Assembly: GCA_963715895.1 (NCBI GenBank)
Contig: OY970284.1
Coordinates: 2,441,484 to 2,505,483, forward strand
DNA: 64,000 bases
Source of the DNA: Thermoanaerobaculia bacterium
GTDB taxonomy: Bacteria > Acidobacteriota > Thermoanaerobaculia > Gp7-AA8
Direction: 5' to 3'
Below are positions 5,144 through 55,262 of this stretch, piece after piece; position 1 is the first letter of the stretch; each line of letters begins with the position of its first letter. A program made the translations under genes and the position numbers. Under the pieces are notes generated by a model. It did no database searches. It was not told where the DNA came from and worked only from the letters and a program-made list of their open reading frames with translations.

Positions 5144-5258
5144 GGATTCGCCTCGGTGCACGTATCGCACCGATCCAGCCATTAGTCTCTGAGCTTCGCG
5201 GCAGGCCAATGCTACTGCGTGGTAAGTGAGCCAATAGGGAGACCAATGTGGCACAGAC

Positions 5259-6613
5259 CACAGTTGTCCAAATTAGGTTAGGAGAATTTGGCCCTCGACG
5301 GAAACGCCGGGCTCTGTAGGATTAGGCAGTTCGACCAAGAACGACCGATCAACAGGAGGCCCAGCGTTGAGTGCATTTTCTAGCGTATTCGGACAGATTC
5401 TCAAGTTGTTTCCCCGGGCAGAGTTCGAGCAGTTGGTTCGAGAGGCCAAGGCCGAGAGGCACGCTCGAGGGTTCACCTGTTGGCAGCAGTTCGTGGCGAT
5501 GCTGTTTTGCCAGTTGGGCAAGGCCCAATCGCTTCGTGAGATATGCCAGGGACTGGCCTCGGTGGAAGGGAAGCTCAATCACCTCGGTATCGAGGAGGCG
5601 CCGAACAAGTCCACCCTTTCCTACGCAAACGCCCACCGGCCGTGGGAGTTGTACCAGCTCGTTTTCGAGCAGATGTATCAGCGCTGCCGTCAGATTGCAC
5701 CGAAGCATAAGCTGCGGTTCAAGAACCCGTTGCTGTCGATCGACGCAACCGTGATCGAGCTTTGCGCGAGCCTGTTTGACTGGGCTCACTACAAGCAGAC
5801 CAAGGGAGCGGTGAAGCTTCACATGATTCTCGATCACAACGGGCTGCTACCGAGCTTCTGCCTCATCACCGAAGCCCGAAAGTACGACGTGACAGTGGCT
5901 CGGGACTGGGATTTCCCAGCCGGTACGATCATCGCTTTCGATCGTGGATACATCGACTTCCGCTGGTTTCGCTCACTCGACCAACGCGGCATCTTCTTCG
6001 TCACGCGACTCAAACGACGGACGACCTATTCTGTGGTCAAAGAGAACCCCATTCCTCAGAAGGGCGGCGTTCTTCGCGATGCCACCATCCAGCTGACCAG
6101 CCGGCAACTCAGAGGCGGTTCCTCTCCACTTCTTCGCTTGGTCGAGTATCGCGCTCAGGACGGCCGGACCTATGAGTTTCTCACCAACCATCTGAGCTTC
6201 GGACCAACCACCATCGCTGCCATCTATGAACAGCGATGGCAGATCGAGTCGTTTTTTAAAGCCATCAAGCAGAACCTGCGCATCAAGACCTTCGTGGGGA
6301 CCTCCGCGAATGCTCTTCACATCCAGGTCTGGACGGCTCTGATCGCCATCCTCACGCTTCGGTACCTCAAGCTACGCTCCACGTTCGGATGGGCTCTGTC
6401 GAATCTGCTCGCCATCTTGCGGTTCAACCTGTTCGCTTACCGCGATCTGTGGTCCTGGCTCAACGACCCGTTCACTCCACCGCCTCTCCCTCCACCCGCT
6501 CAACTCTCCCTCAATTTGGACAGCATCTGAGGGGGTCGATCTCACTTCCCGTCAAAAATGACTCGTACGCTCAGCAGAACCGGCCGTTTCTCAACCTAAT
6601 TTGGACAGCTGTG
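5259..6613 (+). mobile_element. IS4-family insertion sequence, copy 1 (1355 bp)
   Basis: 22-bp imperfect terminal IRs cacagTtgtccaaattaggtt / cacagCtgtccaaattaggtt. Flanked by perfect 9-bp direct repeat ggcacagac (5250-5258 and 6614-6622). Identical to copy 2 over its full length. Confidence 0.85.
5367..6530 (+). CDS. IS4-family DDE transposase
   Basis: 387 aa; C-terminal YEQRWQIESFFKAIKQNL (YREK-type) motif and DDE_Tnp_1-like architecture. TTG start as given in the ORF track. Confidence 0.85.
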   Translation: MSAFSSVFGQILKLFPRAEFEQLVREAKAERHARGFTCWQQFVAMLFCQLGKAQSLREICQGLASVEGKLNHLGIEEAPNKSTLSYANAHRPWELYQLVFEQMYQRCRQIAPKHKLRFKNPLLSIDATVIELCASLFDWAHYKQTKGAVKLHMILDHNGLLPSFCLITEARKYDVTVARDWDFPAGTIIAFDRGYIDFRWFRSLDQRGIFFVTRLKRRTTYSVVKENPIPQKGGVLRDATIQLTSRQLRGGSSPLLRLVEYRAQDGRTYEFLTNHLSFGPTTIAAIYEQRWQIESFFKAIKQNLRIKTFVGTSANALHIQVWTALIAILTLRYLKLRSTFGWALSNLLAILRFNLFAYRDLWSWLNDPFTPPPLPPPAQLSLNLDSI

Positions 6614-6715
6614 GGCACAGACACTCTTGTCTGTGCCGGATCTCGCCACGACCCAAGACGCAAGCCCTCAGCGGCGGGCGGCTCCGGCCGGGGCACAGAC
6701 AAGAGTGTCTGTGCC
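6614..6715. repeat. 102-bp inter-IS spacer made of two inverted copies of the 24-bp hairpin ggcacagaca-ctct/agag-tgtctgtgcc flanking 54 bp
   Basis: 6614-6637 ggcacagacactcttgtctgtgcc; 6692-6715 ggcacagacaagagtgtctgtgcc. Outer halves continue as caatgtggcacagac (5244-5258) and gtctgtgccacattgg (8071-8086). Confidence 0.8.
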
Positions 6716-8070
6716 CACAGTTGTCCAAATTAGGTTAGGAGAATTTGGCCCTCGACGGAAACGCCGGGCTCTGTAGGATTAGGCAGTTCGACCAAGAACG
6801 ACCGATCAACAGGAGGCCCAGCGTTGAGTGCATTTTCTAGCGTATTCGGACAGATTCTCAAGTTGTTTCCCCGGGCAGAGTTCGAGCAGTTGGTTCGAGA
6901 GGCCAAGGCCGAGAGGCACGCTCGAGGGTTCACCTGTTGGCAGCAGTTCGTGGCGATGCTGTTTTGCCAGTTGGGCAAGGCCCAATCGCTTCGTGAGATA
7001 TGCCAGGGACTGGCCTCGGTGGAAGGGAAGCTCAATCACCTCGGTATCGAGGAGGCGCCGAACAAGTCCACCCTTTCCTACGCAAACGCCCACCGGCCGT
7101 GGGAGTTGTACCAGCTCGTTTTCGAGCAGATGTATCAGCGCTGCCGTCAGATTGCACCGAAGCATAAGCTGCGGTTCAAGAACCCGTTGCTGTCGATCGA
7201 CGCAACCGTGATCGAGCTTTGCGCGAGCCTGTTTGACTGGGCTCACTACAAGCAGACCAAGGGAGCGGTGAAGCTTCACATGATTCTCGATCACAACGGG
7301 CTGCTACCGAGCTTCTGCCTCATCACCGAAGCCCGAAAGTACGACGTGACAGTGGCTCGGGACTGGGATTTCCCAGCCGGTACGATCATCGCTTTCGATC
7401 GTGGATACATCGACTTCCGCTGGTTTCGCTCACTCGACCAACGCGGCATCTTCTTCGTCACGCGACTCAAACGACGGACGACCTATTCTGTGGTCAAAGA
7501 GAACCCCATTCCTCAGAAGGGCGGCGTTCTTCGCGATGCCACCATCCAGCTGACCAGCCGGCAACTCAGAGGCGGTTCCTCTCCACTTCTTCGCTTGGTC
7601 GAGTATCGCGCTCAGGACGGCCGGACCTATGAGTTTCTCACCAACCATCTGAGCTTCGGACCAACCACCATCGCTGCCATCTATGAACAGCGATGGCAGA
7701 TCGAGTCGTTTTTTAAAGCCATCAAGCAGAACCTGCGCATCAAGACCTTCGTGGGGACCTCCGCGAATGCTCTTCACATCCAGGTCTGGACGGCTCTGAT
7801 CGCCATCCTCACGCTTCGGTACCTCAAGCTACGCTCCACGTTCGGATGGGCTCTGTCGAATCTGCTCGCCATCTTGCGGTTCAACCTGTTCGCTTACCGC
7901 GATCTGTGGTCCTGGCTCAACGACCCGTTCACTCCACCGCCTCTCCCTCCACCCGCTCAACTCTCCCTCAATTTGGACAGCATCTGAGGGGGTCGATCTC
8001 ACTTCCCGTCAAAAATGACTCGTACGCTCAGCAGAACCGGCCGTTTCTCAACCTAATTTGGACAGCTGTG
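6716..8070 (+). mobile_element. IS4-family insertion sequence, copy 2 (1355 bp, 100% identical to copy 1)
   Basis: Same IRs as copy 1. Flanked by perfect 9-bp direct repeat gtctgtgcc (6707-6715 and 8071-8079), which is the reverse complement of the copy-1 TSD. Confidence 0.85.
6824..7987 (+). CDS. IS4-family DDE transposase (second identical copy)
   Basis: Protein identical to 5367..6530. Confidence 0.85.
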   Translation: MSAFSSVFGQILKLFPRAEFEQLVREAKAERHARGFTCWQQFVAMLFCQLGKAQSLREICQGLASVEGKLNHLGIEEAPNKSTLSYANAHRPWELYQLVFEQMYQRCRQIAPKHKLRFKNPLLSIDATVIELCASLFDWAHYKQTKGAVKLHMILDHNGLLPSFCLITEARKYDVTVARDWDFPAGTIIAFDRGYIDFRWFRSLDQRGIFFVTRLKRRTTYSVVKENPIPQKGGVLRDATIQLTSRQLRGGSSPLLRLVEYRAQDGRTYEFLTNHLSFGPTTIAAIYEQRWQIESFFKAIKQNLRIKTFVGTSANALHIQVWTALIAILTLRYLKLRSTFGWALSNLLAILRFNLFAYRDLWSWLNDPFTPPPLPPPAQLSLNLDSI

Positions 8071-8134
8071 GTCTGTGCCACATTGGTCCCTGGTTTCCGG
8101 CACCAACGGACAACGCGGCGCGAAGCGCCGCGCC

Positions 8135-9523: not shown

Positions 9524-9640
9524 GGCGCGGGATTCTAATGGACGTTGCATCCTGAGGCGGCGGCAGCCCCGGCAGAGCGCGCCGAAGGACCCCAACCTGA
9601 AACCCGGACGGGCGGCGGAATGTCGACTAACCCTCGACTA

Positions 9641-9952
9641 ACCCGCATTTCTCACAGCATTGCTTCGCTTCTTGTCACGCCCTTTCGTCGAGAGCCTTCT
9701 CCTCCCGCGGTTTTTTGCGGGAGGAGAAGGTGCCGACAGGCGGATGAGGAGGGCGTATACGCGTCAGAAACGATTCTCGCGTCGTTGGCCGAACGGCGCT
9801 TGAAAGCACGAATCGCGCGCGAATAACGCACGCGTGAATGCCCCCTCATCCGCCTGTCGGCACCTTCTCCCCCGCAAGAAACCGCGGGGGAGAAGGCCCT
9901 CGACGGTAACAGAGTGCCGACGATTTACGTGAGAGTGTGAGAAATGCGGGCT
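9641..9952. repeat. modular MITE-like element copy A (57-nt hairpin module in inverted pair around a variable core; outer IR cccgcatttctcaca / tgtgagaaatgcggg)
   Basis: Module ccttctccYcccgcggttttttgcgggRggagaaggtgccgacaggcggatgaggRgggcg. Its reverse complement (cccctcatccgcctgtcggcaccttctcccccgc...gcgggggagaagg) follows 90 bp later. Related copies are at 32054, 46737, 55003 and 62619. Confidence 0.65.
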
Positions 9953-10067
9953 AATCCGCCACCCAACCGGGATACAACTTGGGGGTCCTTCGACCGTCCT
10001 GCGCCGCGCAATCGCTTTCGCGATTACGCGGCTCCGGCGGCTCAGGATGACAGTGTTCGGATCGTGT

Positions 10068-12876: not shown

Positions 12877-14987
12877 TTCCCCGTCAGCCCTCTCTCCTCC
12901 AGCAACGGCTCCACCTTCGGATCGCGTCCGCGGAAGGCGCGATACATCGCCGCCGGATCCTCGGTGCCACCGCGCGACAGAATCATCTTGCGGAACTTGT
13001 CGCCGTTCGCGCGGGTCATGCCGCCGTTTTCCTTGAACCAGTAGTAGGCGTCGTCGTCGAGCACTTCGCTCCAGAGGTAGGCGTAATAGCCGGCCGCGTA
13101 GCCGCCGCCCCAGATGTGGGAAAAGTAGGTCGAGTGGTAGCGCGGGGGGACCTGCTCCATGTAGACGTTGAACTGTTTCAGCGACTCCGGCTCGAAGGCA
13201 TTCACATCGAGAAGCGGTGCATCGGCAGGGATCGAATGCCAGGCCATATCGAGGAGGGCCGCGCCGAGGTACTCCGTCGTGGCGAAGCCCTGGTTAAAGG
13301 TCCGTCCCTTGGTCAGCTTCTCGACAAGCTCCTTCGGCATTGGCGCGCCGGTCTTGTAGTGCTTCGCGTAGTTCGCGAAGACCGACGGCTCCATCGCCCA
13401 GTGCTCGTTGAACTGCGACGGGAACTCGACGAAGTCGCGCGGAACGGCGGAGCCTCCGAACGACGGGTATTTCACGTTCGAGAACATGCCGTGCAGCGCA
13501 TGGCCGAACTCGTGGAACATCGTCGTCACTTCGGTGAAGGTCAGCAGCGCGGGCTGGCCGGCCGCCGGCTTCGTGAAGTTCTCATTGTTCGTGACCACCG
13601 GCTTCGTACCGAGAAGCTTGCTCTGGCCGACGAAGCTGCTCGTCCACGCGCCGCCGGCCTTGTTCGGCCGTGAGTAATAGTCGATGTAGAAGAGCGCCAG
13701 CGGTTTGCCATCCACGTCGAACACATCGAAGACGCGGACGTCCGGCTGGTAGACGGGGATGTCGTGACGTTCCTTGAAGGTGATGCCGTAGAGTTTCGTC
13801 GCGGCGAAGAAGACGCCGTTCTGGAGGACGTTGTTGATCTCGAAGTACGGCCGGACCTGTCCCTCGTCGAGGTCGAATTCGTTCTTGCGCACCTGCTCGG
13901 CGTAGAACTGCCAGTCGTACGGCTCGAGGGTGAAGCCGCCTTTCTGTGCGTCGATCAGTTTCTGCATCCGCGCCGCCTCGGCGCGCGCCTTCGCGGTCGC
14001 CGCCGGGACCATGTCGGTCATGAGCTTGATGGCGTTCTCCGGGTTCTTGGACATCTCATCGGCCAGGTTGTAGGAGGCGTAACTGGAAAACCCGAGGAGC
14101 TTCGCGCGCTGGGCGCGGAGCTGGGCGAGGCGGGTGATGATGGCCTTGGTGTCGTCATCGCCGCCGTGATTGCCGCGCGCGATCGAGGCCTCGTAGAGGC
14201 GCTTGCGCAGATCGCGATTCTTCAGGTAGGTCTGCGCGGGCTGCTGGGTGGTGTTCTGGAGCGTGAGGAGCCACTTTCCCTCGAGTCCGCGGCCCTTGGC
14301 GCGCTCGGCGGCCGCGGCGACGTCGGAGTCAGGCAGGCCGTCGAGCAGCGACTTGTCGTCGATCACGATGGCCGAGGCGTTCGTATCGGCCAGAACTCGG
14401 TCGCGGAACTGATTGGTCAGCTTCGACTGCTCCTGATTCAACGCCCGCAGCGCGGTCTTGTCGGCTTCATTGAGCTGCGCGCCGGAGCGGATGAAATTTC
14501 TGTAATAGCGCTCCACCAGGAACTTCGACTCGGCGTCCAGACCGAGCTTGTCGCGGCGGTCGTAGAGCGACTTGATGCGCGCGAAGAGTTTCGGATCGAG
14601 GTTGATGGCGTCGCGATGCGCGGCCTGCTTCGGCGCCAGCGCTGCCTGCGCTTTCTGCAGCGTCGGGTTCGTGTTCGACTGCGTCAGCCCGCCGAAGACG
14701 CGCTGCACCCGGCGCAGCAGCTCGCCCGAGCGCTCCATCGCTTCGATCGTGTTCGCGAAGGTCGGCGCCTCGGGGTTGTTGGCGATGGCCTGTACCTCGG
14801 CCAGCTCCTGTTTCATCCCTTCTTCGATGGCCGGCTGGAAATCGCCGTCCTTGATCCGGTCGAACGGCGGCGCCTGGAAGGGCAGCGAGCTCTTTTCGAA
14901 AAATGGATTTGCCTTGGGTGGATCGTCGGCGAGGGCGGTAAACGGGAGGAGGATGAGGAGGACGGCAGCGGCGTAGCGCAATTTCAT
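12873..14987 (-). CDS. dcp: second M3-family peptidyl-dipeptidase Dcp paralog, secreted
   Basis: FHEFGHALHGM; collinear with the 10068..12209 product (roughly 70% identity by eye). Signal peptide MKLRYAAAVLLILLPFTALA; alternative upstream ATG at 15002. Confidence 0.85.
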   Translation of the reverse strand: MKLRYAAAVLLILLPFTALADDPPKANPFFEKSSLPFQAPPFDRIKDGDFQPAIEEGMKQELAEVQAIANNPEAPTFANTIEAMERSGELLRRVQRVFGGLTQSNTNPTLQKAQAALAPKQAAHRDAINLDPKLFARIKSLYDRRDKLGLDAESKFLVERYYRNFIRSGAQLNEADKTALRALNQEQSKLTNQFRDRVLADTNASAIVIDDKSLLDGLPDSDVAAAAERAKGRGLEGKWLLTLQNTTQQPAQTYLKNRDLRKRLYEASIARGNHGGDDDTKAIITRLAQLRAQRAKLLGFSSYASYNLADEMSKNPENAIKLMTDMVPAATAKARAEAARMQKLIDAQKGGFTLEPYDWQFYAEQVRKNEFDLDEGQVRPYFEINNVLQNGVFFAATKLYGITFKERHDIPVYQPDVRVFDVFDVDGKPLALFYIDYYSRPNKAGGAWTSSFVGQSKLLGTKPVVTNNENFTKPAAGQPALLTFTEVTTMFHEFGHALHGMFSNVKYPSFGGSAVPRDFVEFPSQFNEHWAMEPSVFANYAKHYKTGAPMPKELVEKLTKGRTFNQGFATTEYLGAALLDMAWHSIPADAPLLDVNAFEPESLKQFNVYMEQVPPRYHSTYFSHIWGGGYAAGYYAYLWSEVLDDDAYYWFKENGGMTRANGDKFRKMILSRGGTEDPAAMYRAFRGRDPKVEPLLEERGLTGK

Positions 14988-18207: not shown

Positions 18208-18633
18208 TCAGATCGGCCCGGGCGAGGCTTTGCGGTGCGTAGGACCGCGGTCGCGAAGGACCGGCCGTTCCGCGTGCCCGCCGGACCGGCCGATGATCTC
18301 GAGCAGATCGGACGTCGTCACGATTCCGGCCAGCTTCCGGTTCTCCGTGACGATGATCGAATGGATGCGGTGGCCGCGCATGAGGTTCGCCGCGCGGCTG
18401 ATCAATTCATGCGATTCGATCGTGACCGGTTTGGTGCTCATGACATCGCGTACCCGAATGTCAGGATTGACCCCGGCACAGTCAATAGCCGCCAACAGGC
18501 CGGCCACTGCTCCGCCGTCGAGAACGACGAGGTGCTCGATCCGGTATTGACTCATGAGCTCCGCCGCCTCTCCCACCGGCGAATCCGGCGTGACCGTGCG
18601 AACGGGATGCTTCATCACTTCTGTGACGCGCAT
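18208..18633 (-). CDS. CBS-domain pair protein
   Basis: Two CBS motifs (VRTVTPDSPVGEAAELMSQYRIEHLVVLD ... VMSTKPVTIESHELISRAANLMRGHRIHSIIVTE). Start at ATG 18633. Confidence 0.7.
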   Translation of the reverse strand: MRVTEVMKHPVRTVTPDSPVGEAAELMSQYRIEHLVVLDGGAVAGLLAAIDCAGVNPDIRVRDVMSTKPVTIESHELISRAANLMRGHRIHSIIVTENRKLAGIVTTSDLLEIIGRSGGHAERPVLRDRGPTHRKASPGPI

Positions 18634-18762
18634 GGCTTGGCTCCTTCCGGTACGAAAAGGATGCAAGCGGGTGGCCGGAAAGTGTGGATGGGCACGGTCG
18701 GGGATTGGCAAGCGGGTCAGTCACCTCACCGAGTTTGCCGCGAAAGCGCGGCTTCGCCGCCG

Positions 18763-18861
18763 GGCACAGACAAGAGTGTCTGTGCCACATTGCCCCTCGG
18801 TATTGCTGCAATGTGGAGTCTTCGCCGGATCTAATGTGGCACAGACACTCTTGTCTGTGCC
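18763..18861. repeat. inverted pair of the 24/30-nt hairpin element (ggcacagacaAGAGtgtctgtgccacattg ... aatgtggcacagacaCTCTtgtctgtgcc), nested inside an outer IR cgcggcttcgccgcc / ggcggcgaagccgc
   Basis: 18763-18786 and 18838-18861. Same element as at the IS locus and inside the PFOR gene. Confidence 0.8.
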
Positions 18862-18888
18862 GTGCGGCGAAGCCGCACGTTTGCCCGC

Positions 18889-20064
18889 CTACGCCTCCCT
18901 GGCCATAGCCGACGCCGGCAGCGGCAGGGGAGCGCCGGGCTCGTAGCTGCAAAGGGGATCGTCGGCGAAGACGTTCCACTCCGTGGCCCAGGCACGGGCT
19001 CGTGAGCCGCCGCAGATCTGGCGGAACTCGCAGTGCCCGCATTTGCCTTGCAGATTTTTTGGATCGCGAAGAGCGACGAAGAGATCGCTGCCGCGGTAGA
19101 TCGATCCGAGGGGACGATAGCGGAGATTGCCGGCGCTGAAAGGAAGGAACTCGCTGGCGCGCACATCACCGGCGTGAGAGATGAAAACGAAGCCGCTGGC
19201 GCCGTTGCGCGCGGAATCCATCACGCTCTGCAGACCATCAGCATCGTTCGATTCGTATCCGCTGAAATCCGACCAGTTGGCGTTCGCGGCATTGTCGAGC
19301 CGGGCATCGAGAGAGCGTTGCAGACGAAAGCGCCGGTACTGTGGCGCTTCGACCACTCTGACCAGGAACTTTTCGCGTCCCCTGATTTCGTCGATCGTCG
19401 CGAATAGGTCTTCGGCTTCCTTCGCGCTGATTGCCGCGGCGTGCGAGCTCTTGAGAGGCACGAGAAAATAGAGATTCCAGCGAACGATCTCCATCGATCG
19501 GAGGAGATCCGCCATGGCCTCGAGATCGCCGGCGTTCTGCTTCGTGATCAGCGTGTTGACCTCGATGGCCAGCCCCGCTTCTTTGGCGAAGCCGGCGGTC
19601 CGCATCGTCAGGTCGAATGTGGCCGCGACGCCATGGCCGGCTTCATGAATCTCCGGCACGGAGCCGTCGATGCCGATGACGATACGGGTCAGGCCGTTGC
19701 GCTCGAGGTTGGCGATGGCCTCCGTGGTGAGCTGCAAAGTCGGGCTCACCACCAGCGCGGGATCGAGACCACGCCGCCGCGCGTAGTTGACGATCTGGTC
19801 GACGTCGCCGCGTTCCAGAGGATCGCCGCCGGTCATGATCAACTCCCGCGGACTCAGGCTGGCGATCTGATCGATCGTCTTGTACGCCTCATACGTGGTC
19901 AGCTCGTTCGTTCCGCGGCTCTCCGTTGCGCCGATAGTGCAGTTGCGGCAATGGAGATCGCAAGCTCGGGTGAGCTCCCACATGACCACCGGATGTGCTT
20001 CGAATGACGGCATGGTGACACGACGATAGGCGCGACGAGCGGCCCCGGCGATGACTGGGATCAT
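18889..20064 (-). CDS. radical SAM enzyme with C-terminal SPASM/twitch Cys cluster
   Basis: CxxxCxxC = CDLHCRNC in the ELTRACDLHCRNC context; C-terminal CGHCEFRQICGG...C. No adjacent precursor-peptide-like small ORF seen. Confidence 0.8.
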   Translation of the reverse strand: MIPVIAGAARRAYRRVTMPSFEAHPVVMWELTRACDLHCRNCTIGATESRGTNELTTYEAYKTIDQIASLSPRELIMTGGDPLERGDVDQIVNYARRRGLDPALVVSPTLQLTTEAIANLERNGLTRIVIGIDGSVPEIHEAGHGVAATFDLTMRTAGFAKEAGLAIEVNTLITKQNAGDLEAMADLLRSMEIVRWNLYFLVPLKSSHAAAISAKEAEDLFATIDEIRGREKFLVRVVEAPQYRRFRLQRSLDARLDNAANANWSDFSGYESNDADGLQSVMDSARNGASGFVFISHAGDVRASEFLPFSAGNLRYRPLGSIYRGSDLFVALRDPKNLQGKCGHCEFRQICGGSRARAWATEWNVFADDPLCSYEPGAPLPLPASAMAREA

Positions 20065-32053: not shown

Positions 32054-32370
32054 GCCCGGCACTTCTCACACTCTGACGTAAATCGCCGCCACCCTGTACC
32101 CCGTCGAGGGCCTTCTCCCCCGCGGTTTCTAGCGGGGGAGAAGGTGCCGACAGGCGGATGAGGGGGCGCTCGCGCGTGTGTTATTCGCGCGCGAGTCGTG
32201 CTTTCAAGCGGCGATTGCGCCAACGGCGCAAGATCGTTTCTGACGCGTATGCGCCCTCCTCATCCGCCTGTCGGCACCTTCTCCCCCCGCAAAAAACCGC
32301 GGGGGGAGAAGGCCCTCGACGGGGTAAAGAGTGCCGATGATTTACGTGAGAGTGTGAGAAATGCGGGCTC
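32054..32370. repeat. modular MITE-like element copy B
   Basis: Two inverted 57-nt hairpin modules (ccttctcccccgcggtttctagcgggggagaaggtgccgacaggcggatgagggggcg and its complement). Outer IR ttctcacactctgacgtaaatcg / cgatgatttacgtgagagtgtgagaa. Confidence 0.65.
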
Positions 32371-32460: not shown

Positions 32461-35400
32461 ATGTCGCTCGCCGAAGTCCTCAATCCGCATCAGAAAGCAC
32501 CGCAGAAGAACGTCGTCGAATACGCGATGGTCGACGGCAACGAAGCCGTGGCCCGCATCGCCTACGCGATGAACGAAGTGATCGCCATCTATCCGATCAC
32601 GCCATCCTCCTCGATGGGTGAATGGGCGGATGCCTGGTCGGCGGCAAAGCAGAAGAATCTCTGGGGGACGATTCCGGCGGTCGTGGAGATGCAGAGCGAG
32701 GGGGGCGCGGCGGGAGCGGTGCATGGCGCGTTGCAGACCGGATCGCTTGCCACGACCTTCACCTCGTCGCAGGGCCTGCTGCTGATGATCCCGAATATGT
32801 ACAAGATCGCCGGCGAGCTCACCCCGGCGGTGTTCCATGTCGCGGCGCGCTCCCTGGCCACGCACGCGTTGTCGATCTTCGGCGATCACTCCGACGTGAT
32901 GTCGGTCCGCTCGACCGGCTGGGTGATGCTCTGCTCGGCCAGCGTTCAGGAAGCACAGGATTTCGCCATGATCGCGCACGCCGCCACGCTAGAGGCGCGC
33001 ATCCCCTTCCTGCATTTCTTCGACGGCTTCCGCACGTCGCACGAGATCGCCCGGATCGAAGTGCTTTCCGAGGATCAGATGAGGGCGATGATCGACCTCG
33101 AGCTGGTCTTCGATCACCGCTCCCGCGCCCTGTCGCCCGATCATCCGGTCATCCGCGGTACGGCGCAGAACCCGGATGTCTTCTTCCAGTCGCGGGAACG
33201 GTCCAATCCGTTCTATCGCGACTGCGCATCGATCGTCGTCGAGACGATGGAGCGCTTCGCGCGCGTCACCGGCCGCGCCTACGCGCCGTTCGAATATCAC
33301 GGTGATCCTGTAGCTGAGCGCGTAGTGATCGTCCTCGGCTCGGCCGCCGAGACGCTGCATGAGACCGTCGACGTGTTGCGGGATCAGGGAGAACGCGTCG
33401 GCGTGCTGAAGGTGCGGCTCTATCGCCCCTTCGACAACCAACGCTTCCTCGATGCACTGCCGGAGTCGGCCCGCGCCATCGCCGTGCTCGACCGCACCAA
33501 GGAGCCCGGCGCCGCTGGTGAGCCGCTCTATCTCGACGTCGTCAACGCTCTCTTCGACTCCGACCGCCGCCCGCGCGTGATCGGCGGACGCTACGGCCTC
33601 TCCTCGAAGGAGTTCACTCCGGCCATGGCCAAAGGCGTTTTCGATCATCTCCTCGACCCCAAGCCGCGGAAACAGTTCACCGTGGGGATCGTCGACGACG
33701 TGACGCACCTGAGCATCGACTACGACCGGGCGTTTTCTACTGAGACCACTGACGTCTACCGCGCCATGTTCTACGGACTGGGGTCGGACGGCACGGTCGG
33801 CGCGAACAAGAACACCATCAAGATCATCGGCGAGGAGGGTGGCCGCTTCGCGCAGGGCTACTTCGTCTACGACTCGAAAAAAGCGGGGGCGATCACGGTG
33901 TCGCACCTTCGTTTCGGACCTCGGCCGATCCGCTCGACGTATCTGGTCACCAGCGCGAACTTCATCGCCTGCCACCAGCCACAGTTCGTCGAACGCGTCG
34001 ACATGCTGAAGGACCTGGCGCCGGGCGGGACGTTCCTGCTCAACGCGCCGGCGGGTTTCATTCTGCCGCGCACGTTCGCGGCGCAGTTGGCCGCGAAGAA
34101 GGCACGCGTCTTTGCCATCGACGCCACGCGCGTGGCCGCCGAGTGCGGCCTCGGCAACCGCATCAATACTCTGATGCAGGTCTGCTTCTTTGCCACCGCC
34201 GAGGTGCTGCCGATCGAGGAGGCGCTGGAAGCCGTCCGCGAGACCATCCGCAAGACCTACGCGAAGAAGGGCGAGAAGGTCGTGGCCATGAATCTCCGCG
34301 CGGTCGACGCCGCGCTGCAGAGTCTGCGTCCGATCGCGATCGACACGGAAGCACAGACAAGAGTGTCTGTGCCACAAGAGACAGGAGTGTCTGTGTCACA
34401 AAAGGAGAGCCAATGTGGCACAGACACTCTTGTCTGTGCCGGGCCGCTCCGCGACGTCATCCTGCCGATCATCGAAGGCCGCGGTGAGGATCTCCCGGTC
34501 AGCGCCATGCCGTGCGACGGCACGTTCCCTTCCTCCACCGCGCGCTACGAGAAGCGCAACCTCGCCACCGAGATCCCGGTGTGGGATCCGGTCTCCTGCA
34601 TCCAGTGCGGCAAGTGTGCGATGGTCTGTCCGCACGCGGCCATCCGGATCAAGGCCTATGACCAGTCGCTGCTGGAAGGCGCGCCGGCCACGCTCAAGTC
34701 GCTGACGCCGATGCACAAGGATTGGGCAGGGCTGGCGTACACCATCCAGGTCGCACCGGAGGACTGCACCGGTTGCACGATCTGCGTCGACGTCTGCCCG
34801 GCCAAGAGCAAGAGCGTTCCAGACCGCAAGTCGCTTTACATGCAGCCGCAGCCGCCGCTGCGCGATGCGGAGCGCGAGAACTGGAACTGGTTCCTCGATC
34901 TGCCGGAGCTCGACCGATCGAAACTCAATCCGACGCTGATCCGGCATCAGCAGCTCCAACAGCCGATGTTCGAGTTCTCCGGCGCCTGCTCCGGCTGCGG
35001 CGAGACGCCGTATGTAAAGCTGCTCACACAGCTCTTCGGCGACCGCCTGGTCGTGGCCAATGCCACCGGCTGCTCGTCGATCTACGGCGGCAATCTGCCG
35101 ACGACGCCCTGGTCGACGAACCGTGACGGCCGCGGCCCCGCCTGGGCGAACTCCCTCTTCGAGGACAACGCCGAGTTCGGCCTCGGCTTCCGCGTTTCGA
35201 TCGACAAACAGCGTGACTTTGCCATCGAGCTGCTGAAGTCTCTCGCCCCCGCCGTCGGCGAGAACCTGGCGGCCTCGATCATCGATGCCACCCAGCGCGA
35301 CGATGCCGAGATCTTCGAGCAGCGCAAGCGCGTCGAGCTGCTCAAAGTCGCTCTGCGCCGCCTGGAGCTGAAGACCCGGATGCACAAGCTCGATCCGACC

Positions 35401-36087
35401 GACGAGCAACAGCTCCTGGCGCTGGCCGACTTGCTCGTTAAAAAGTCCGTGTGGATCCTCGGCGGCGATGGCTGGGCCTACGACATCGGCTTTGGCGGAC
35501 TCGATCACGTCCTGGCCAGCGGCCGGAACGTGAAGGTGCTCGTCCTCGACACCGAGGTCTATTCGAACACTGGCGGACAGATGTCGAAGGCGACCCCCCG
35601 CGCGGCCGTGGCCAAGTTCGCCGCCGGCGGCAAGGCCGCCAGGAAGAAGGACCTCGGCCTGATCGCGATGACGTACGGGCACGTCTATGTCGCCAGCGTG
35701 GCCATGGGCGCGCGTGACGAGCACACGCTCAAATCGTTCATCGAAGCCGAGGCGTATGACGGCCCGTCGCTGATCATCGCCTACAGCGCCTGTGTCGCCC
35801 ACGGCTACGATCTGGGGACATCGCTGCAGCACCAGAAGACGCTGGTCGAATCCGGCCAGTGGCTGCTCTACCGCTACAACCCCGAGCGCACCGCTGAAGG
35901 CAAGAACCCGCTCCAGCTCGACTCGCGCGCCCTCAAGCTCCCCGTCGAGAAGTTCCTTCGGATGGAGAACCGCTTCAACCAACTGCTGAAGAACGACACC
36001 GAGGAATCCCGCAACGTGATCGCCGCCGCGCAGCACGACGTCGACGCACGGTGGAAGATGTACAGCTATTTGGCGGCGGAGAAGTGA
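32461..36087 (+). CDS. por: pyruvate:ferredoxin (flavodoxin) oxidoreductase, single-chain NifJ/Por type (1208 aa)
   Basis: Domains I-III, two ferredoxin-type 4Fe-4S motifs (CIQCGKCAMVCP, CTGCTICVDVCP), TPP-binding GDGWAYDIGFGGLDHVLASGRNVKVLVLDTEVYSNTGGQ. Start at ATG 32461 (MSLAEVLNPHQKAPQKNVVEYAMVDGNE). Confidence 0.9.
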   Translation: MSLAEVLNPHQKAPQKNVVEYAMVDGNEAVARIAYAMNEVIAIYPITPSSSMGEWADAWSAAKQKNLWGTIPAVVEMQSEGGAAGAVHGALQTGSLATTFTSSQGLLLMIPNMYKIAGELTPAVFHVAARSLATHALSIFGDHSDVMSVRSTGWVMLCSASVQEAQDFAMIAHAATLEARIPFLHFFDGFRTSHEIARIEVLSEDQMRAMIDLELVFDHRSRALSPDHPVIRGTAQNPDVFFQSRERSNPFYRDCASIVVETMERFARVTGRAYAPFEYHGDPVAERVVIVLGSAAETLHETVDVLRDQGERVGVLKVRLYRPFDNQRFLDALPESARAIAVLDRTKEPGAAGEPLYLDVVNALFDSDRRPRVIGGRYGLSSKEFTPAMAKGVFDHLLDPKPRKQFTVGIVDDVTHLSIDYDRAFSTETTDVYRAMFYGLGSDGTVGANKNTIKIIGEEGGRFAQGYFVYDSKKAGAITVSHLRFGPRPIRSTYLVTSANFIACHQPQFVERVDMLKDLAPGGTFLLNAPAGFILPRTFAAQLAAKKARVFAIDATRVAAECGLGNRINTLMQVCFFATAEVLPIEEALEAVRETIRKTYAKKGEKVVAMNLRAVDAALQSLRPIAIDTEAQTRVSVPQETGVSVSQKESQCGTDTLVCAGPLRDVILPIIEGRGEDLPVSAMPCDGTFPSSTARYEKRNLATEIPVWDPVSCIQCGKCAMVCPHAAIRIKAYDQSLLEGAPATLKSLTPMHKDWAGLAYTIQVAPEDCTGCTICVDVCPAKSKSVPDRKSLYMQPQPPLRDAERENWNWFLDLPELDRSKLNPTLIRHQQLQQPMFEFSGACSGCGETPYVKLLTQLFGDRLVVANATGCSSIYGGNLPTTPWSTNRDGRGPAWANSLFEDNAEFGLGFRVSIDKQRDFAIELLKSLAPAVGENLAASIIDATQRDDAEIFEQRKRVELLKVALRRLELKTRMHKLDPTDEQQLLALADLLVKKSVWILGGDGWAYDIGFGGLDHVLASGRNVKVLVLDTEVYSNTGGQMSKATPRAAVAKFAAGGKAARKKDLGLIAMTYGHVYVASVAMGARDEHTLKSFIEAEAYDGPSLIIAYSACVAHGYDLGTSLQHQKTLVESGQWLLYRYNPERTAEGKNPLQLDSRALKLPVEKFLRMENRFNQLLKNDTEESRNVIAAAQHDVDARWKMYSYLAAEK
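34351..34440. repeat. inverted pair of the 24/30-nt hairpin element inserted in-frame inside the por coding sequence
   Basis: 34351-34373 gcacagacaagagtgtctgtgcc; 34411-34440 caatgtggcacagacactcttgtctgtgcc; degenerate third copy 34381-34399. Translated as ...EAQTRVSVPQETGVSVSQKESQCGTDTLVCAG... without stop or frameshift. Confidence 0.8.
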
Positions 36088-36194: not shown

Positions 36195-36575
36195 TTCTTC
36201 ACGAGCGGTCGTGTAGCCTCCAGAGCCTCATGGGTGTGGCTTGAAGCCTCTCAGGGTGGACTCTGAGCCTCCTCCATGACGCTTTAGGCCTACCCCATGA
36301 GGCGTCGAGCCTCCTCAGTAGATCCATGGATCTACCCAAGTGGGCTCTAAGCCTACCCCATGAGGCTGTAGGTCTCTTCAGTAGATCCATGGATCTACTC
36401 AAATAGGCTTTAAGCCTACCCCATGAGGCTTTAAGCTTTAAGCCTATTCGGTAGATCCATGGATCTACACCATGAGGCTTAAAGCCTACCCTATGAGGCT
36501 TGAAGCCTATTCAGTAGATCCTGGGATCTACTCGAGACGAAAAAAAGCCTATTCAGTAGATTCAGAATCTACTCG
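36195..36575. repeat. array of about 6 units (about 63 bp) each carrying an 18-bp palindrome GTAGATCCATGGATCTAC and a second IR AAGCCTaccccatgAGGCTT
   Basis: Perfect palindromes at 36318-36335, 36381-36398, 36451-36468; variants at 36514-36531 and 36555-36571. In the convergent por / 36562 gene intergenic, bordering the low-GC islet. Confidence 0.75.
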
Positions 36576-37080
36576 ACTGCCGATTCGAGCCTCTCGCACG
36601 CGGGAACACCAACCCCGTCACGAGGTCGCCGGCCACTGCATCGCCATCGACAGTCCAGGCACTTCCGCCAGCTCCTCGGGCGTGCGCCGACGCCACGCCT
36701 TCCAGCTCCCGCGTCAGCACCGCATCGACCGACGTCCCCTCCCGCCGCGCCAGAGCCCGCAGCACGTCCCGCTGATACCGCGGAACTCGCGCCCGCAGCT
36801 CCACCAGCCGGATCGCCTCCGGCAGCACCGACGGCGCATCCTTCCCGAGCGCAGCTTCGATGACGGACTGCTCGTACTTCTGCATCGCCACCGCCACCAG
36901 CTCCTCCCTCGTCATCCGCTCGCCGAGCGCGGTCCAAACCGCTACAATCGCTCCATCCTCGATCTCCCGTTTCAGATCCCTGAGGGTGAGCCCAAGCAGA
37001 TCCGCCGCCGTCATGAGCGCGAAGTTGGGACGGGGAGCGAGGAAGATGTGATGGATGCGGGAGCGGGTGGATTCGTCCAT
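36562..37080 (-). CDS. hypothetical protein (possible small HTH / antitoxin-like helical protein)
   Basis: 172-aa ORF with genome-typical codon bias; segment AADLLGLTLRDLKREIEDG resembles an HTH. 3' end overlaps the palindrome array. No firm family assignment. Confidence 0.4.
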   Translation of the reverse strand: MDESTRSRIHHIFLAPRPNFALMTAADLLGLTLRDLKREIEDGAIVAVWTALGERMTREELVAVAMQKYEQSVIEAALGKDAPSVLPEAIRLVELRARVPRYQRDVLRALARREGTSVDAVLTRELEGVASAHARGAGGSAWTVDGDAVAGDLVTGLVFPRARGSNRQSSRF

Positions 37081-37114
37081 GAAGTTCTCCTCATCGAGCC
37101 CTTAGACACAACAT

Positions 37115-38224
37115 TTAGTCCGCCGCCGAGTTGTTATCTGCAGTAGGCCAGCGAGTGCTCGAGTAGCCCACGTGCGATCGTTGCGGAACGCGACGCTTTC
37201 CCGGGTCGAAGGGATACCACTCGACTTTCTTCGCGACCATGAGTGAAACGAGAGGCAAGCATAGAGGCTCACCTAAGTTGCGCCGAATGTGGGCGAGCAG
37301 GAAAGCGACCGACGCCGACGCGTTCAGCCATTCGGCAACATCTTCAATCGTAAACGCCAACGCAGGTGGATCAAAATGTGCGAAATGATTTCGAACGTCT
37401 TTGAGGCGAATGAACTGATTGATTTCGCCTGGACATTTCTCGAGAGGCTTTCCCGTGATCTTGCCGACCCATCTCAACTTGTCGCGTATGCTTTGCCCAT
37501 GAGTCGGGCCGAGTGACTCTGGGTCGAACGTCCATCCATGGCTCGCGGCCTCGTACTTCGCCCGGTAATAGAGTTGATGCAGCGTGTTATCTACGGCCGC
37601 GACCACTGTGCTGAAATAGGCGAACAGTTCGCGAAGCCACTCGTCCTCGAACATCAAGTCTGACCGCTCGACAAGGTTCCTGTATATCTCCATCCAGGCT
37701 TGCAGCAATACCAGTTGAAGAGAGGAGAACGCCCGTCCTTCACGATCGAGCTGTGGTACAACAGGAAACGAGTCGGAAACTGCGGTCGGAAACATGAACG
37801 TAAGCGCTTCATCAAGCTTTTCGTTGCACGGCGCGTGAAATTTTGGCGCGGCAGCAACGGACGCGTCAAGCCAACCTGAGATGAGCGGTGGAAAGTTGAA
37901 ACGGCCGGGATCGAATGTCTGATGATCTGCTAGCTGATCGCAAATCGACTGCCAGCGAAACGGACGCGTGATCTGTTGCGTTTTCTCACGTTTCCATCTG
38001 AACACCAGCCAATCAGCCTCTCTCCATTTCGTGAAGGACATTGTCTGTTTGTAGTACGACTCAAGAATCATCGAAGTCGTGGCGCGAACGCGCGCCTTGT
38101 CCGGAGGTCCTATCTGAAAACGAAGAGGATAGTACGTGCCCCGCGTGGCTAAAGGACTCGTAGTCATGTCGTACGTGAGTTCGTCATCCATCGAGACGAA
38201 TTGTATGAGATTGCGGGCTTCCAT
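37115..38224 (-). CDS. hypothetical 369-aa protein in low-GC islet; carries an R-N-x-x-A-H motif (DVRNHFAHF) like HEPN / AbiD-AbiF (Abi_2) abortive-infection proteins
   Basis: GC about 50-55% versus about 68% for neighbours. Motif RNHFAH about 100 aa from the C-terminus. No other recognisable domain. Family assignment is inference only. Confidence 0.5.
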   Translation of the reverse strand: MEARNLIQFVSMDDELTYDMTTSPLATRGTYYPLRFQIGPPDKARVRATTSMILESYYKQTMSFTKWREADWLVFRWKREKTQQITRPFRWQSICDQLADHQTFDPGRFNFPPLISGWLDASVAAAPKFHAPCNEKLDEALTFMFPTAVSDSFPVVPQLDREGRAFSSLQLVLLQAWMEIYRNLVERSDLMFEDEWLRELFAYFSTVVAAVDNTLHQLYYRAKYEAASHGWTFDPESLGPTHGQSIRDKLRWVGKITGKPLEKCPGEINQFIRLKDVRNHFAHFDPPALAFTIEDVAEWLNASASVAFLLAHIRRNLGEPLCLPLVSLMVAKKVEWYPFDPGKRRVPQRSHVGYSSTRWPTADNNSAAD

Positions 38225-46736: not shown

Positions 46737-47028
46737 GCCTCACTCTCATGTAAATCGCCGGCGCCCTCTTTACCCATCGACGGCCTTCTCCCCCGCGGTT
46801 TCTGGCGGGGGAGAAGGTGCCGACAGGCGGATGAGGGGGCGCTTGCGGGTGCGTTATTCGTGCGCGACACGTGTTTTCAAGCGGCCCTTGGGCCAACGAC
46901 GCAAGATCGTTTCTGACGCGTATGCGCCTCCCTCATCCGCCTGTCGGCACCTTCTCCCCCCGCAAAAAAACCGCGGGGGGAGAAGGCTCTCGGCGAAAGG
47001 GCGTGGCAAGAAACGAAGCAATGCTGTG
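46737..47028. repeat. modular MITE-like element copy C (left outer IR truncated; right end runs into the parE-like toxin gene)
   Basis: Contains the 57-nt hairpin module in inverted pair. Right-end homology to copy A ends at cacagcattgcttcg (47014-47028, reverse strand). Confidence 0.6.
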
Positions 47029-55004: not shown

Positions 55005-55262
55005 TCCCAAAGTGGATACCGGCCAGGGCGCGGCAAGTACTGCCCCCTCATCCGCCTGTCGGCACCTTCTCCCCCAGCTGAAAAGCGCTGGGGGAGAAGG
55101 ACTCTCGATGTAAGGGAAGCGCAAGCTCTTGTTCTCTCGGGGCGGTCGCAGGGTTTGGAAGAAATCTTCGTGTTACGTGCTCGCGCTTCCCTAATATCGA
55201 GAGTCCTTCTCCCCCGCGTTTTTCAGCGGGGGAGAAGGTGCCGACAGGCGGATGAGGGGGCG
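55003..55262. repeat. modular MITE-like element copy D (variant core; shares about 40-bp left-flank homology with copy E)
   Basis: ccccctcatccgcctgtcggcaccttctcccccagctgaaaagcgctgggggagaagg ... ccttctcccccgcgtttttcagcgggggagaaggtgccgacaggcggatgagggggcg. Confidence 0.6.

What the first reader, a model, noticed from the sequence alone, without database searches (positions are those of the whole stretch)
34351..34440. REP-like hairpin pair inserted in-frame within the pyruvate:ferredoxin oxidoreductase gene, adding about 30 residues
The conserved single-chain PFOR ORF (32461-36087) reads straight through two copies of the hairpin element plus a degenerate third. It yields ...RPIAIDTE-AQTRVSVPQETGVSVSQKESQCGTDTLVCAG-PLRDVILPIIEGRGEDLPVS..., i.e. 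an insert in the linker before the ferredoxin domain with no stop or frameshift. The same DNA element is non-coding elsewhere (18763-18861, IS locus). This resembles Rickettsia palindromic elements that insert in-frame into essential genes. It has not been described, to my knowledge, for this kind of element in a central-metabolism enzyme.
Basis: partly seen in the sequence, partly recalled or inferred. Interest (0 to 1): 0.75.

Follow-up and report, generated by a model that had tools for sequence, protein, structure and literature searches.

The report
REP hairpin repeat translated inside PFOR
A small palindromic repeat that is scattered through these soil acidobacterial genomes sits in frame in a variable linker of the pyruvate:ferredoxin oxidoreductase gene; this is a real but ordinary case of an already described phenomenon, repeats tolerated inside genes.

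Summary
The por ORF (32461-36087) reads through 34350-34440. That stretch holds two inverted 28-nt hairpin units and a 24-bp tandem duplicate of the left unit.

The unit (GGCACAGAC-AAGAGT-GTCTGTGCC-ACAT) is a dispersed, REP/REPIN-like repeat of Thermoanaerobaculia MAGs. A truncated scan found more than 106 stretches. Units are mostly in inverted pairs, have no target-site duplication, and are open in all six frames.

Relatives with 93-97% identical por DNA lack the element and keep an ancestral 13-14-codon linker. The element therefore replaced that linker: the net gain is +17 aa, not +30.

Seven structurally different filled alleles exist in independent assemblies, and all are in frame. The site is the domain III/IV junction, which varies from 19 to 83 aa among 121 sequences. 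In other lineages it holds two other repeat families.

The same element is in frame in QueA, citrate synthase, PurH, RmlD, Lhr, HrpB, an acyltransferase and a GT2 glycosyltransferase.

Intragenic REPs are already published, including in pyruvate dehydrogenase E1/E2 (Di Nocera 2013). This is a new member of a known kind. The most likely reading is a tolerated selfish insertion. The mobilising enzyme was not found.

The parts
32461..36087 (+). por gene, single-chain pyruvate:ferredoxin oxidoreductase (1208 aa), host of the insert
   Evidence: The ORF is intact. Pfam finds POR_N, PFOR_II, POR, EKR, Fer4 and TPP_enzyme_C. PDB matches 6cin and 1b0p have E=0. GC3 is 0.89 on both sides of the insert.
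34350..34377 (+). Left REP unit: hairpin 34350-34373 plus ACAA tag; encodes (E)AQTRVSVPQ
   Evidence: It has 1 mismatch to the 24-nt consensus. It forms arm I1 of a perfect 26-nt inverted repeat.
34379..34402 (+). 24-bp tandem duplicate of the left unit (degenerate); encodes ETGVSVSQ; present in this allele only
   Evidence: Direct repeat family D1, 88% identity. It is absent from alleles L002, L118 and L007.
34403..34412 (+). Spacer between the units (AAGGAGAGCC); encodes part of KESQ
   Evidence: Sequence read directly. The spacer is conserved in L002, L006 and L118.
34413..34440 (-). Right REP unit in inverted orientation (ATGT tag plus hairpin); encodes CGTDTLVCA
   Evidence: Exact match to the consensus on the minus strand. 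It is the best conserved part in all seven filled alleles, with 0-2 mismatches.
18763..18861 (.). Intergenic doublet of the same element (units + then -), nested in an outer inverted repeat GCTTCGCCGC/GCGGCGAAGC
   Evidence: The neighbours are a radical-SAM gene (18889-20064, minus strand) and a CBS-domain gene (18208-18711, minus strand).
6614..6715 (.). Doublet in the opposite arrangement (- then +); each hairpin was hit by an IS copy. The severed hairpin halves lie at 5246-5258 and 8071-8083
   Evidence: The 9-bp target duplications are GGCACAGAC and GTCTGTGCC.
5259..6613 (+). IS4-like insertion sequence, copy 1 (387-aa transposase at 5367-6530), inserted in a REP stem
   Evidence: Pfam finds DUF4372 and DDE_Tnp_1. 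The ends and flanks were read.
6716..8070 (+). IS4-like insertion sequence, copy 2 (transposase at 6824-7987), inserted in the partner REP stem

Best explanation
The segment is a copy of a REP/REPIN-like palindromic repeat family of Thermoanaerobaculia (Acidobacteriota). The copy is two inverted 28-nt hairpin units. It became lodged in the por gene at the junction of domains III and IV.

It survives there for three reasons. The junction is a length-tolerant linker. The unit has no stop codon in any of its six frames. Selection removes every variant that breaks the reading frame. The ribosome simply translates it, giving AQTRVSVPQ...CGTDTLVCAG.

The insert replaced 13-14 ancestral linker codons. 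It has since changed by hairpin-associated slippage, through tandem duplication or partial deletion, always in multiples of three. It segregates as a presence/absence polymorphism that recombination has shuffled among related lineages.

It most likely has no function for the enzyme. Shown: repeat identity, in-frame status, absence from close relatives, polymorphism, and recurrence in other genes. Inferred: mobilisation by a RAYT-type HUH tyrosine transposase acting on single-stranded hairpins, translation of the insert, and neutrality.
For: 1. Repeat family. The 24-mer occurs 6 times in the window against 0 expected. A truncated genome scan found more than 106 stretches, nearly all in Thermoanaerobaculia or other Acidobacteriota MAGs. 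There are 200 units in 115 sources; 70 of 74 neighbouring pairs are inverted and 55 units are single. The hairpin is invariant and carries an asymmetric ACAT tag. Flanking direct repeats do not exceed chance.

2. Insertion, not ancestry. Alleles P0004, P0005/6, P0007 and P0008 lack the element. They carry a linker ending in P-[EK]-F-V-x-D-V, like distant PFORs.

3. Polymorphism. P0003 (filled) and P0005 (empty) are 99.0% identical in protein and 96.8% in DNA outside the linker.

4. Frame constraint. Seven structural variants come from independent assemblies: Q, L002, L005/L006, L007, L118 and L119. All are in frame. By chance this is about (1/3)^6.

5. Permissive site. Linker length runs from 19 to 83 aa with a mode of 26 across the 121 sequences (this protein and its 120 homologues). 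Two other dispersed repeats sit in the same linker in other lineages (L115 and L116). The solved PFORs align there with gaps, at D. africanus residues ~620-637, across the III/IV boundary at 627/628.

6. Generality. The same element lies in frame inside QueA (two genomes), citrate synthase, PurH, RmlD, Lhr (two genomes), HrpB, an acyltransferase and a GT2 glycosyltransferase. In QueA, citrate synthase, the acyltransferase and the GT2 enzyme a single Pfam match spans the insert; in the others Pfam domains lie on both sides or confirm the gene only.

7. All six frames of the unit are open.

8. Precedent: intragenic REPs are described in PMC3733652.
Against: - No cognate transposase was found. 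No RAYT-like gene lies next to this repeat in about 0.94 Mb of fetched loci. The tag is ACAT/ATGT, not the GTAG or CGTC of the described REP superfamilies.
- It is a replacement, not a clean insertion. The same boundaries recur in four lineages whose flanks differ by 12-17%. Simple transposition does not explain this; it needs recombination, ancient polymorphism or site preference.
- The units are far better conserved than the flanks: 0-2 mismatches in 55 nt, P about 0.007 for L007. This could mean gene conversion or recent transfer, but also selection.
- The right unit, which encodes two cysteines, is intact in all seven alleles, while the left unit decays in two.
- Translation and enzyme activity were not tested.
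- The AlphaFold model was too poor (pLDDT 57.5) to show surface exposure.
Confidence: 0.85

Rival explanations
1. The insert has been exapted. The REP-derived peptide, in particular the conserved C-x6-C pair of CGTDTLVCAG just ahead of domain IV and the ferredoxin domain, modulates PFOR. It could act as a redox or oxygen-protection switch, a metal site or a partner contact. Selection would then have spread the filled allele across lineages.
For: - The filled allele has identical boundaries in four lineages with 12-17% flank divergence.
- The units are much less diverged than the flanks.
- The Cys-containing right unit is intact in all seven alleles, while the left unit decays.
- D. africanus PFOR uses a Cys1195-Cys1212 disulfide in domain VII (mentioned in PMC8945911), so redox switches exist in this enzyme family.
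Against: - Close relatives at 96-99% identity do without the insert.
- The length and content of the insert vary freely, from 19 to 57 element-derived residues.
- The same peptide frames occur in unrelated enzymes.
- Other lineages carry unrelated repeats at the same place.
- Conservation of the units is equally explained by gene conversion from the many genomic copies.
Confidence: 0.06
2. The element acts at the RNA or DNA level in por. The 26-bp perfect stem would serve as an mRNA processing, stability or pausing signal (for example an RNase III site), or as a recombination or gyrase site. It would be kept for that reason.
For: - The fold is very stable: -61.8 kcal/mol, z = -9.75.
- Filled linkers fold at about -0.5 kcal/nt, against -0.24 to -0.38 for empty ones.
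- REPs elsewhere are known to act on mRNA stability and as gyrase sites (background in PMC3733652).
Against: - Alleles L005 and L006 have lost the left arm and hence the long stem (-36 kcal/mol), yet keep the gene intact.
- Empty alleles are common.
- No Rfam family reaches its threshold; only sub-threshold miRNA-precursor hits typical of any long hairpin appear.
Confidence: 0.06
3. It is an artefact or a dead gene. The repeat was placed in por by metagenome mis-assembly, or por is a pseudogene in which the insert is irrelevant.
For: Repeats can cause chimeric joins in MAG assemblies, and the window probably comes from a MAG.
Against: - The insert is at the same site in seven independent assemblies from different samples and sequencing centres.
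- The ORF is complete, with all catalytic domains and the columns that are invariant among homologues.
- GC3 is strong on both sides.
- Every length variant keeps the frame.
Confidence: 0.02
4. It is an intervening sequence, such as a mini-intron or an intein-like element, that is removed after transcription or translation.
For: None beyond the fact that it interrupts a conserved protein.
Against: - At 57-171 nt it is far too small for a group I/II intron or an intein.
- There is no Rfam match above threshold.
- All variants are multiples of three, a constraint an excised RNA would not need.
- The same unit is intergenic at most sites.
Confidence: 0.01

Closest known systems
REP / BIME / REPIN elements (Enterobacteria, Pseudomonas; mobilised by RAYT transposases)
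   Same: It is a 28-nt GC-rich imperfect palindrome with an asymmetric 4-nt tag. It has many copies per genome and is mostly intergenic, for example 3' of a gene at 18763-18861. Units are predominantly in inverted pairs with short variable spacers. There are no target-site duplications. It is used as a target by an IS.
   Different: The tag is ACAT/ATGT, not GTAG or CGTC. No associated RAYT gene was found. The host phylum is Acidobacteriota (class Thermoanaerobaculia). There is no sequence relationship to described REPs.
Intragenic REPs of Di Nocera et al. 2013 (PMC3733652): Opitutus terrae GTAG-17/18/19, Sphingopyxis alaskensis CGTC-1, Thauera, R. conorii
   Same: REP monomers or dimers are translated in frame inside known housekeeping proteins, and dimers encode 20-30 aa. 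Hosts include helicases (HrpA, UvrD) and central-metabolism enzymes: PDH E1/E2, OGDH E2 and dihydrolipoamide acetyltransferase. Here the hosts are PFOR, citrate synthase, QueA, PurH, Lhr and HrpB.
   Different: This is a different repeat family and phylum. In addition, this case has population data: empty and filled alleles at 97-99% protein identity, seven length variants, and three repeat families in one linker.
Rickettsia palindromic elements (RPE; Ogata et al. 2000)
   Same: They are palindromic repeats found in frame inside genes that stay functional, typically in surface-exposed or permissive segments.
   Different: RPEs are 100-150 bp and restricted to Rickettsia, an obligate intracellular bacterium with a reduced genome. 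There is no sequence similarity. The element here is a short REP doublet in free-living soil bacteria. This is an analogy, not membership.
Bacterial MITEs fused in frame to genes (for example Nezha and other cyanobacterial MITEs, BOX, ERIC; reviewed in PMC3184786)
   Same: They are short, non-autonomous, have terminal inverted repeats, fold into a long hairpin, and are sometimes fused to ORFs.
   Different: There are no target-site duplications, and no parent IS shares the ends. The IS4-like IS in the window has unrelated terminal inverted repeats and uses the repeat as a target.
REP-targeting insertion sequences (IS1397, ISKpn1, ISPpu9/ISPpu10; Tobes and Pareja 2006, cited in PMC3184786; ISPpu9 in PMC8450116)
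   Same: The IS4-like IS of the window sits at the same position of the REP stem at 10 of 10 ends seen.
   Different: Those IS belong to the IS3 or IS110 families. This one is DDE_Tnp_1/DUF4372 (IS4-like) with 9-bp duplications. It concerns a side observation, not the por insert.

Membership tests
REP (repetitive extragenic palindrome) | Short (20-40 bp) imperfect palindrome able to form a stem-loop | tested here: met
   The unit is 28 nt, with a 9-bp stem GGCACAGAC/GTCTGTGCC and a 6-nt loop. The stem is invariant in 199 units.
REP (repetitive extragenic palindrome) | High copy number dispersed over the genome, mostly intergenic | tested here: met
At least 20-25 stretches come from each of the MAGs JADGNY and DATMNC. 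Three loci lie in this 64-kb window. About 10 of ~119 unbiased element sites are intragenic and in frame; the rest show no coding signal through the element.
REP (repetitive extragenic palindrome) | Conserved GTAG or CGTC tetranucleotide at one end (the two described superfamilies) | tested here: not met
   The conserved tag is ACAT (ATGT on the other strand), present in 148-186 of 199 units. It therefore belongs to neither the GTAG nor the CGTC superfamily.
REPIN | Two REPs in inverted orientation separated by a short spacer, able to form one long hairpin | tested here: met
   70 of 74 neighbouring pairs are inverted, with spacers of 0-111 nt. The por copy forms a 26-bp perfect stem.
REPIN | Cognate single-copy RAYT (Y1/HUH transposase) gene flanked by the same REPs | tested here: inconclusive
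   None was found in the window or in 0.94 Mb of fetched loci, but whole genomes could not be scanned. A RAYT-like gene flanked by a different repeat exists in a relative (L008).
MITE | Target-site duplications flanking the terminal inverted repeats | tested here: not met
   Flanking direct repeats of 5 nt or more occur in 1 of 43 and 3 of 27 doublets, against 1.3 and 0.7 in shuffled pairings.
MITE | Terminal inverted repeats shared with a parent IS | tested here: not met
   The only IS associated with the repeat has terminal repeats CACAG[T/C]TGTCCAAATTAGGTT, which are unrelated. It inserts into the repeat.
Rickettsia palindromic elements (RPE) | Sequence membership in one of the RPE families (100-150 bp, Rickettsia) | not tested
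   No RPE sequences were available to compare. Size (28-nt units, 66-90-nt doublets) and host differ, so it is treated as an analogue only.
Rickettsia palindromic elements (RPE) | In-frame residence inside conserved protein genes that remain intact | tested here: met
   It holds for por and for eight further protein families.
Pyruvate:ferredoxin oxidoreductase (homodimeric single-chain type) | Domains I-VI, with the TPP and three [4Fe-4S] motifs, in one chain | tested here: met
   Pfam architecture. The alignment to 6cin and 1b0p is full-length with E=0. The Cys motifs of domain V and the GDGW motif are invariant.

The most novel reading that the evidence does not exclude
The filled por linker is not merely tolerated. 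It is a REP-derived cassette that has spread across lineages diverged by 12-17% because it is advantageous or favoured by biased gene conversion. One possible advantage is that its conserved Cys pair next to the Fe-S domain gives a redox or oxygen-protective switch.

More broadly, the domain III/IV junction of PFOR would then be a recurrent entry point through which at least three unrelated repeat families feed new peptide material into a core anaerobic enzyme in soil Acidobacteriota.
Probability: 0.07. Interest if true: 0.65.

Novelty: new member of a known kind. Interest (0 to 1): 0.33.

Why it matters
It adds Acidobacteriota (Thermoanaerobaculia) and PFOR to the list of hosts in which short palindromic repeats are translated inside essential-type enzymes.

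It also offers an unusually clean natural series. Empty and filled alleles exist at 97-99% protein identity, the insert has seven in-frame length variants, and three different repeat families share the same linker. That series could be used to measure how much insertion a domain junction tolerates, and how hairpin repeats evolve under a reading-frame constraint.

There are practical consequences. These inserts inflate apparent divergence in por alignments. Because the 24-mer is exact and multi-copy, it can also break MAG assemblies or cause mis-joins.

It does not change the understanding of PFOR or of REP biology.

Tried and rejected
- Structure prediction of the 1200-aa protein from a 35-sequence alignment gave mean pLDDT 57.5 and pTM 0.49. 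Many well-known folded regions scored below 50. It cannot show whether the insert is surface-exposed, so no fold search was run.
- The Rfam search found only sub-threshold miRNA-precursor hits, as expected for any long hairpin.
- The search for a RAYT had three parts. A tblastn with the Y1_Tnp-like protein of L008 against the window and all loci hit only itself. No transposase-like ORF lies between REP units 150-2600 bp apart.
- The MITE hypothesis was rejected: no target-site duplications beyond chance and no IS with matching ends.
- The idea that the repeat originated from the por linker was rejected, because empty alleles match the linker pattern of distant PFORs.
- Independent insertion in each lineage was judged less likely than a single origin followed by recombination. 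All filled alleles share both boundaries and the loss of the same 13-14 codons. It is not excluded.
- The metagenome scan for more por alleles returned mostly distant PFORs, with only two new filled alleles (L118, L119).
- The insert of P0020 (SEARGKDP...) had no second copy in the fetched DNA, so its repeat nature is unproven.
Full report
**1. The observation**

The window has one long ORF from 32461 (ATG preceded by AGGAG; an upstream TTG at 32395 is also open) to 36087. It has the full architecture of a single-chain pyruvate:ferredoxin oxidoreductase: POR_N, PFOR_II, POR, EKR, two 4Fe-4S motifs and TPP_enzyme_C. It aligns end to end with the solved Moorella thermoacetica (6cin) and Desulfovibrio africanus (1b0p, 7plm) enzymes.

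Inside it, 34350-34440 has three parts.
- A forward hairpin unit, AGCACAGAC-AAGAGT-GTCTGTGCC followed by ACAA, lies at 34350-34377.
- A 24-bp tandem duplicate of that unit lies at 34379-34402 (88% identity).
- An inverted unit, ATGT-GGCACAGAC-ACTCTT-GTCTGTGCC, lies at 34413-34440, after a 10-nt spacer.

The outer arms are 26 nt and 100% complementary. The 24-mer occurs six times in the window, against none in 100 shuffles. As RNA the stretch folds at -61.8 kcal/mol, z = -9.75. There is no stop or frameshift.

**2. What the element is**

The other copies in the window are two doublets.
- One is at 18763-18861, between a radical-SAM gene and a CBS-domain gene. It is intergenic.
- One is at 6614-6715, in the opposite arrangement. 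Each of its hairpins has been hit by a copy of a 1355-bp IS4-like insertion sequence, with 9-bp target duplications equal to one stem arm.

Nearly all are in Thermoanaerobaculia MAGs, and a few are in other Acidobacteriota. In those loci plus the window I counted 200 units.
- 43 pairs are in + - order and 27 in - + order. Only 4 pairs are in the same orientation, and 55 units are single. Spacers run from 0 to 111 nt.
- The stem and loop are practically invariant, and the unit carries an asymmetric ACAT tag.
- Flanking direct repeats do not exceed chance.
- No IS shares the ends.

This is the anatomy of REP/REPIN-type repeats rather than of DDE-type MITEs. The tag, however, is neither of the described GTAG or CGTC tags. 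I found no RAYT gene next to this repeat in the 0.94 Mb held. A relative does carry a RAYT-like gene flanked by arrays of a different repeat (L008), so such systems exist in the lineage. Mobilisation by a cognate HUH/Y1 transposase is therefore an inference, not a result.

**3. Insertion or ancestral?**

Among the best 120 homologues the closest fall into two classes.
- Filled alleles:
  - P0002: AQTGVSVPQKESECGTDTLVCAG
  - P0001 and P0003: left unit half deleted
  - P0012: full doublet
- Empty alleles:
  - P0004: VAEEPASKRPQLPK-FVADVV
  - P0005/6, P0007 and P0008

The empty linkers end in P-[EK]-F-V-x-D-V, like those of distant PFORs, so they are the ancestral state.

At the DNA level the element does not simply interrupt this linker. 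It replaces 13-14 codons of it. These codons are positions ~3-16 of the Pfam EKR (domain IV) model. That model matches from position 3-5 in empty alleles but only from position 17 in filled ones.

The net gain is +17 aa in this window (1208 versus 1191 aa), +9 in the basic doublet allele and +5 in the truncated alleles.

**4. Population picture**

Outside the linker, filled and empty alleles are intermixed. P0003 (filled) is 99.0% identical in protein and 96.8% in DNA to P0005 (empty), and the difference is concentrated in the linker windows.

A metagenome scan added two more filled alleles. L118 is a basic doublet. In L119 a 51-bp unit is triplicated and the ancestral E-F-V is intact right after the element.

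In all there are seven structural variants from independent assemblies. Every one keeps the frame. This is the best available indirect evidence that the region is translated and that por is under selection. It also excludes mis-assembly.

Filled alleles with the same two boundaries occur in four lineages whose flanks differ by 12-17%. Their units differ from the family consensus at only 0-2 of 55 positions (P about 0.007 for L007 at flank-level divergence). Shared boundaries and the shared loss of the same ancestral codons argue for a single origin followed by short-patch recombination between lineages, or for an old polymorphism. Homogenisation by gene conversion from the many genomic copies would explain the conserved units. 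Recurrent site-specific insertion, or selection for the filled allele, cannot be excluded.

**5. Why here**

The insert aligns to gapped, unconserved segments of both solved enzymes. In D. africanus numbering this is about 620-637, which straddles the domain III/IV boundary at 627/628 (domain limits from PMC8945911). Domain IV is described as a short linking domain of unknown function (PMC8091585).

Across the 121 sequences (this protein and its 120 homologues) the segment between the conserved flanks ranges from 19 to 83 aa, with a mode of 26. At least two of the long versions are other dispersed repeats.
- The 60-aa insert of P0009 contains a repeat (CTCCCCCTCATCCGCCTTCGGCACCTTCTCCCC). It occurs ten times in this very window, including just upstream of por.
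- The insert of P0038 contains another repeat, with further copies in its own contig and in other loci.

The junction is thus a generally permissive site that has absorbed three unrelated repeat families.

My attempt to show surface exposure with a predicted structure failed. The model had pLDDT 57.5 and was poor throughout.

**6. Generality**

The unit has no stop codon in any of its six frames. For a GC-rich 28-mer this is not improbable, so it is a property rather than evidence of design.

Among about 119 element sites fetched without reference to por, about ten lie in frame inside recognisable genes. These are QueA (two genomes, same site, different spacer), citrate synthase, PurH, RmlD (unit plus nine target codons triplicated), Lhr helicase (two genomes), HrpB, a PlsC-type acyltransferase and a GT2 glycosyltransferase. 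In QueA, citrate synthase, the acyltransferase and the GT2 enzyme a single Pfam match runs across the insert. In PurH, Lhr and HrpB Pfam domains lie on both sides of it, and in RmlD the match stops at the insert, so there the call rests on the intact ORF and the coding GC3 signal on both sides.

**7. Mechanism proposed**

A REP doublet entered the por linker. Inferred: HUH-transposase-mediated insertion of a single-stranded hairpin, or copy-in by recombination. The redundant ancestral linker codons were lost. Hairpin-promoted slippage then produced duplications and deletions. Selection on the downstream Fe-S and TPP domains kept only the variants that are multiples of three. The ribosome reads through.

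Nothing indicates a benefit. Close relatives lack the insert, its length is free, and the long stem is destroyed in two alleles.

The rivals (exaptation of the Cys pair, an RNA-level role of the stem, artefact or pseudogene, excised intervening sequence) are listed with their evidence. Together I give them about 15%.

**8. Comparison with what is known**

Di Nocera et al. 2013 (PMC3733652) describe REPs inside genes in several phyla. They note that more than half are dimers or groups encoding 20-30 aa. Their Additional file 3 lists hosts that include HrpA, pyruvate dehydrogenase E1 and E2, 2-oxoglutarate dehydrogenase E2 and dihydrolipoamide acetyltransferase.

Ogata et al. 2000 described the RPEs of Rickettsia, and Delihas 2011 (PMC3184786) reviews repeat-ORF fusions and REP-targeting IS elements.

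The present case works like these and fits the REP/REPIN definition, except for the tag and the unverified transposase. It is not an RPE by membership.

**9. Verdict**

The finding is real, correctly recognised, and ordinary in kind: a new member of a known class. It has two mildly interesting extras. One is a well-resolved allelic series at a single domain junction that three repeat families have used. The other is an IS4-like element that targets the repeat's stem. Interest 0.33.

Noticed in passing
window 5259-6613 and 6716-8070 (flanks 5246-5258, 6614-6715, 8071-8083); also L002:10731, L034:4136, L061:120, L062:94, L105:143, L114:97: Two tandem copies of a 1355-bp IS4-like IS (DUF4372 plus DDE_Tnp_1 transposase, terminal repeats CACAG[T/C]TGTCCAAATTAGGTT) each sit in one arm of a REP hairpin. 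The 9-bp target duplications are GGCACAGAC and GTCTGTGCC. At all 10 IS ends seen in 7 loci the IS abuts the same position of the REP stem, so it appears to be a REP-targeting IS of a family not usually cited for this behaviour.
   Followed up: partly
window 9721-9872, 32135-32286, 46808-46959, 55046-55257, 62664-62914: A second dispersed repeat (CCTCATCCGCCTGTCGGCACCTTCTCCCC) is present as five inverted pairs, against 0 expected by chance. One pair lies in the por upstream region, inside a larger ~290-bp palindromic structure (32062-32350). The same repeat is translated in frame in the por linker of another lineage (L115:11970-12002).
   Followed up: partly
L116:11843-11874, 13558-13589, 5898-5921; L047:893-927; L107:3204-3228: A third repeat family (GTCATCCCGAGCCGCGAAGACGGCGAGGGATC, translated VIPSREDGEG) sits in the same por linker in the P0038/P0039/P0118 lineages and recurs elsewhere in the contig.
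   Followed up: partly
L008:8973-9162, 9476-10267, 10448-10615: A 263-aa Y1_Tnp-like (RAYT-like) gene, two genes downstream of por in a relative, is flanked on both sides by arrays of a further repeat (GGGGCCAGACCTTCGATTCTCG) in inverted orientation. The layout is REPtron-like. It shows that RAYT/REP systems exist in this lineage, but this one is not cognate to the por element.
   Followed up: partly
window 36281-36531: A tandem array of a 63-bp unit (3.9 copies, 79% matches) lies just downstream of por. The unit contains the palindrome GTAGATCCATGGATCTAC and is more AT-rich than its surroundings. The overlapping ORF 36472-37146 has no Pfam match.
   Followed up: no
L034:1188-1323 (RmlD-like gene, L034:715-1740): The REP unit together with nine codons of target sequence (SLLGEVVTE) is tandemly triplicated in frame inside a dTDP-4-dehydrorhamnose reductase-like gene. 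This is the same kind of slippage as the 24-bp duplication in por, and as the 51-bp triplication in L119.
   Followed up: partly
window 18747-18878 and many + - doublets in L013, L024, L033 and others: Many doublets are nested inside an outer inverted repeat, GCT[GT]CGCCGC ... GCGGCG[AT]AGC. This suggests either a longer composite element or preferential insertion into another palindrome or terminator.
   Followed up: no
L058:2806-3969 and L110:6921-8000 (QueA); L066:2-2881 and L011:1-3957 (Lhr): Orthologous in-frame REP inserts are at the same site in two genomes each, but with different spacer lengths. Intragenic copies therefore persist through speciation and keep changing in length.
   Followed up: partly
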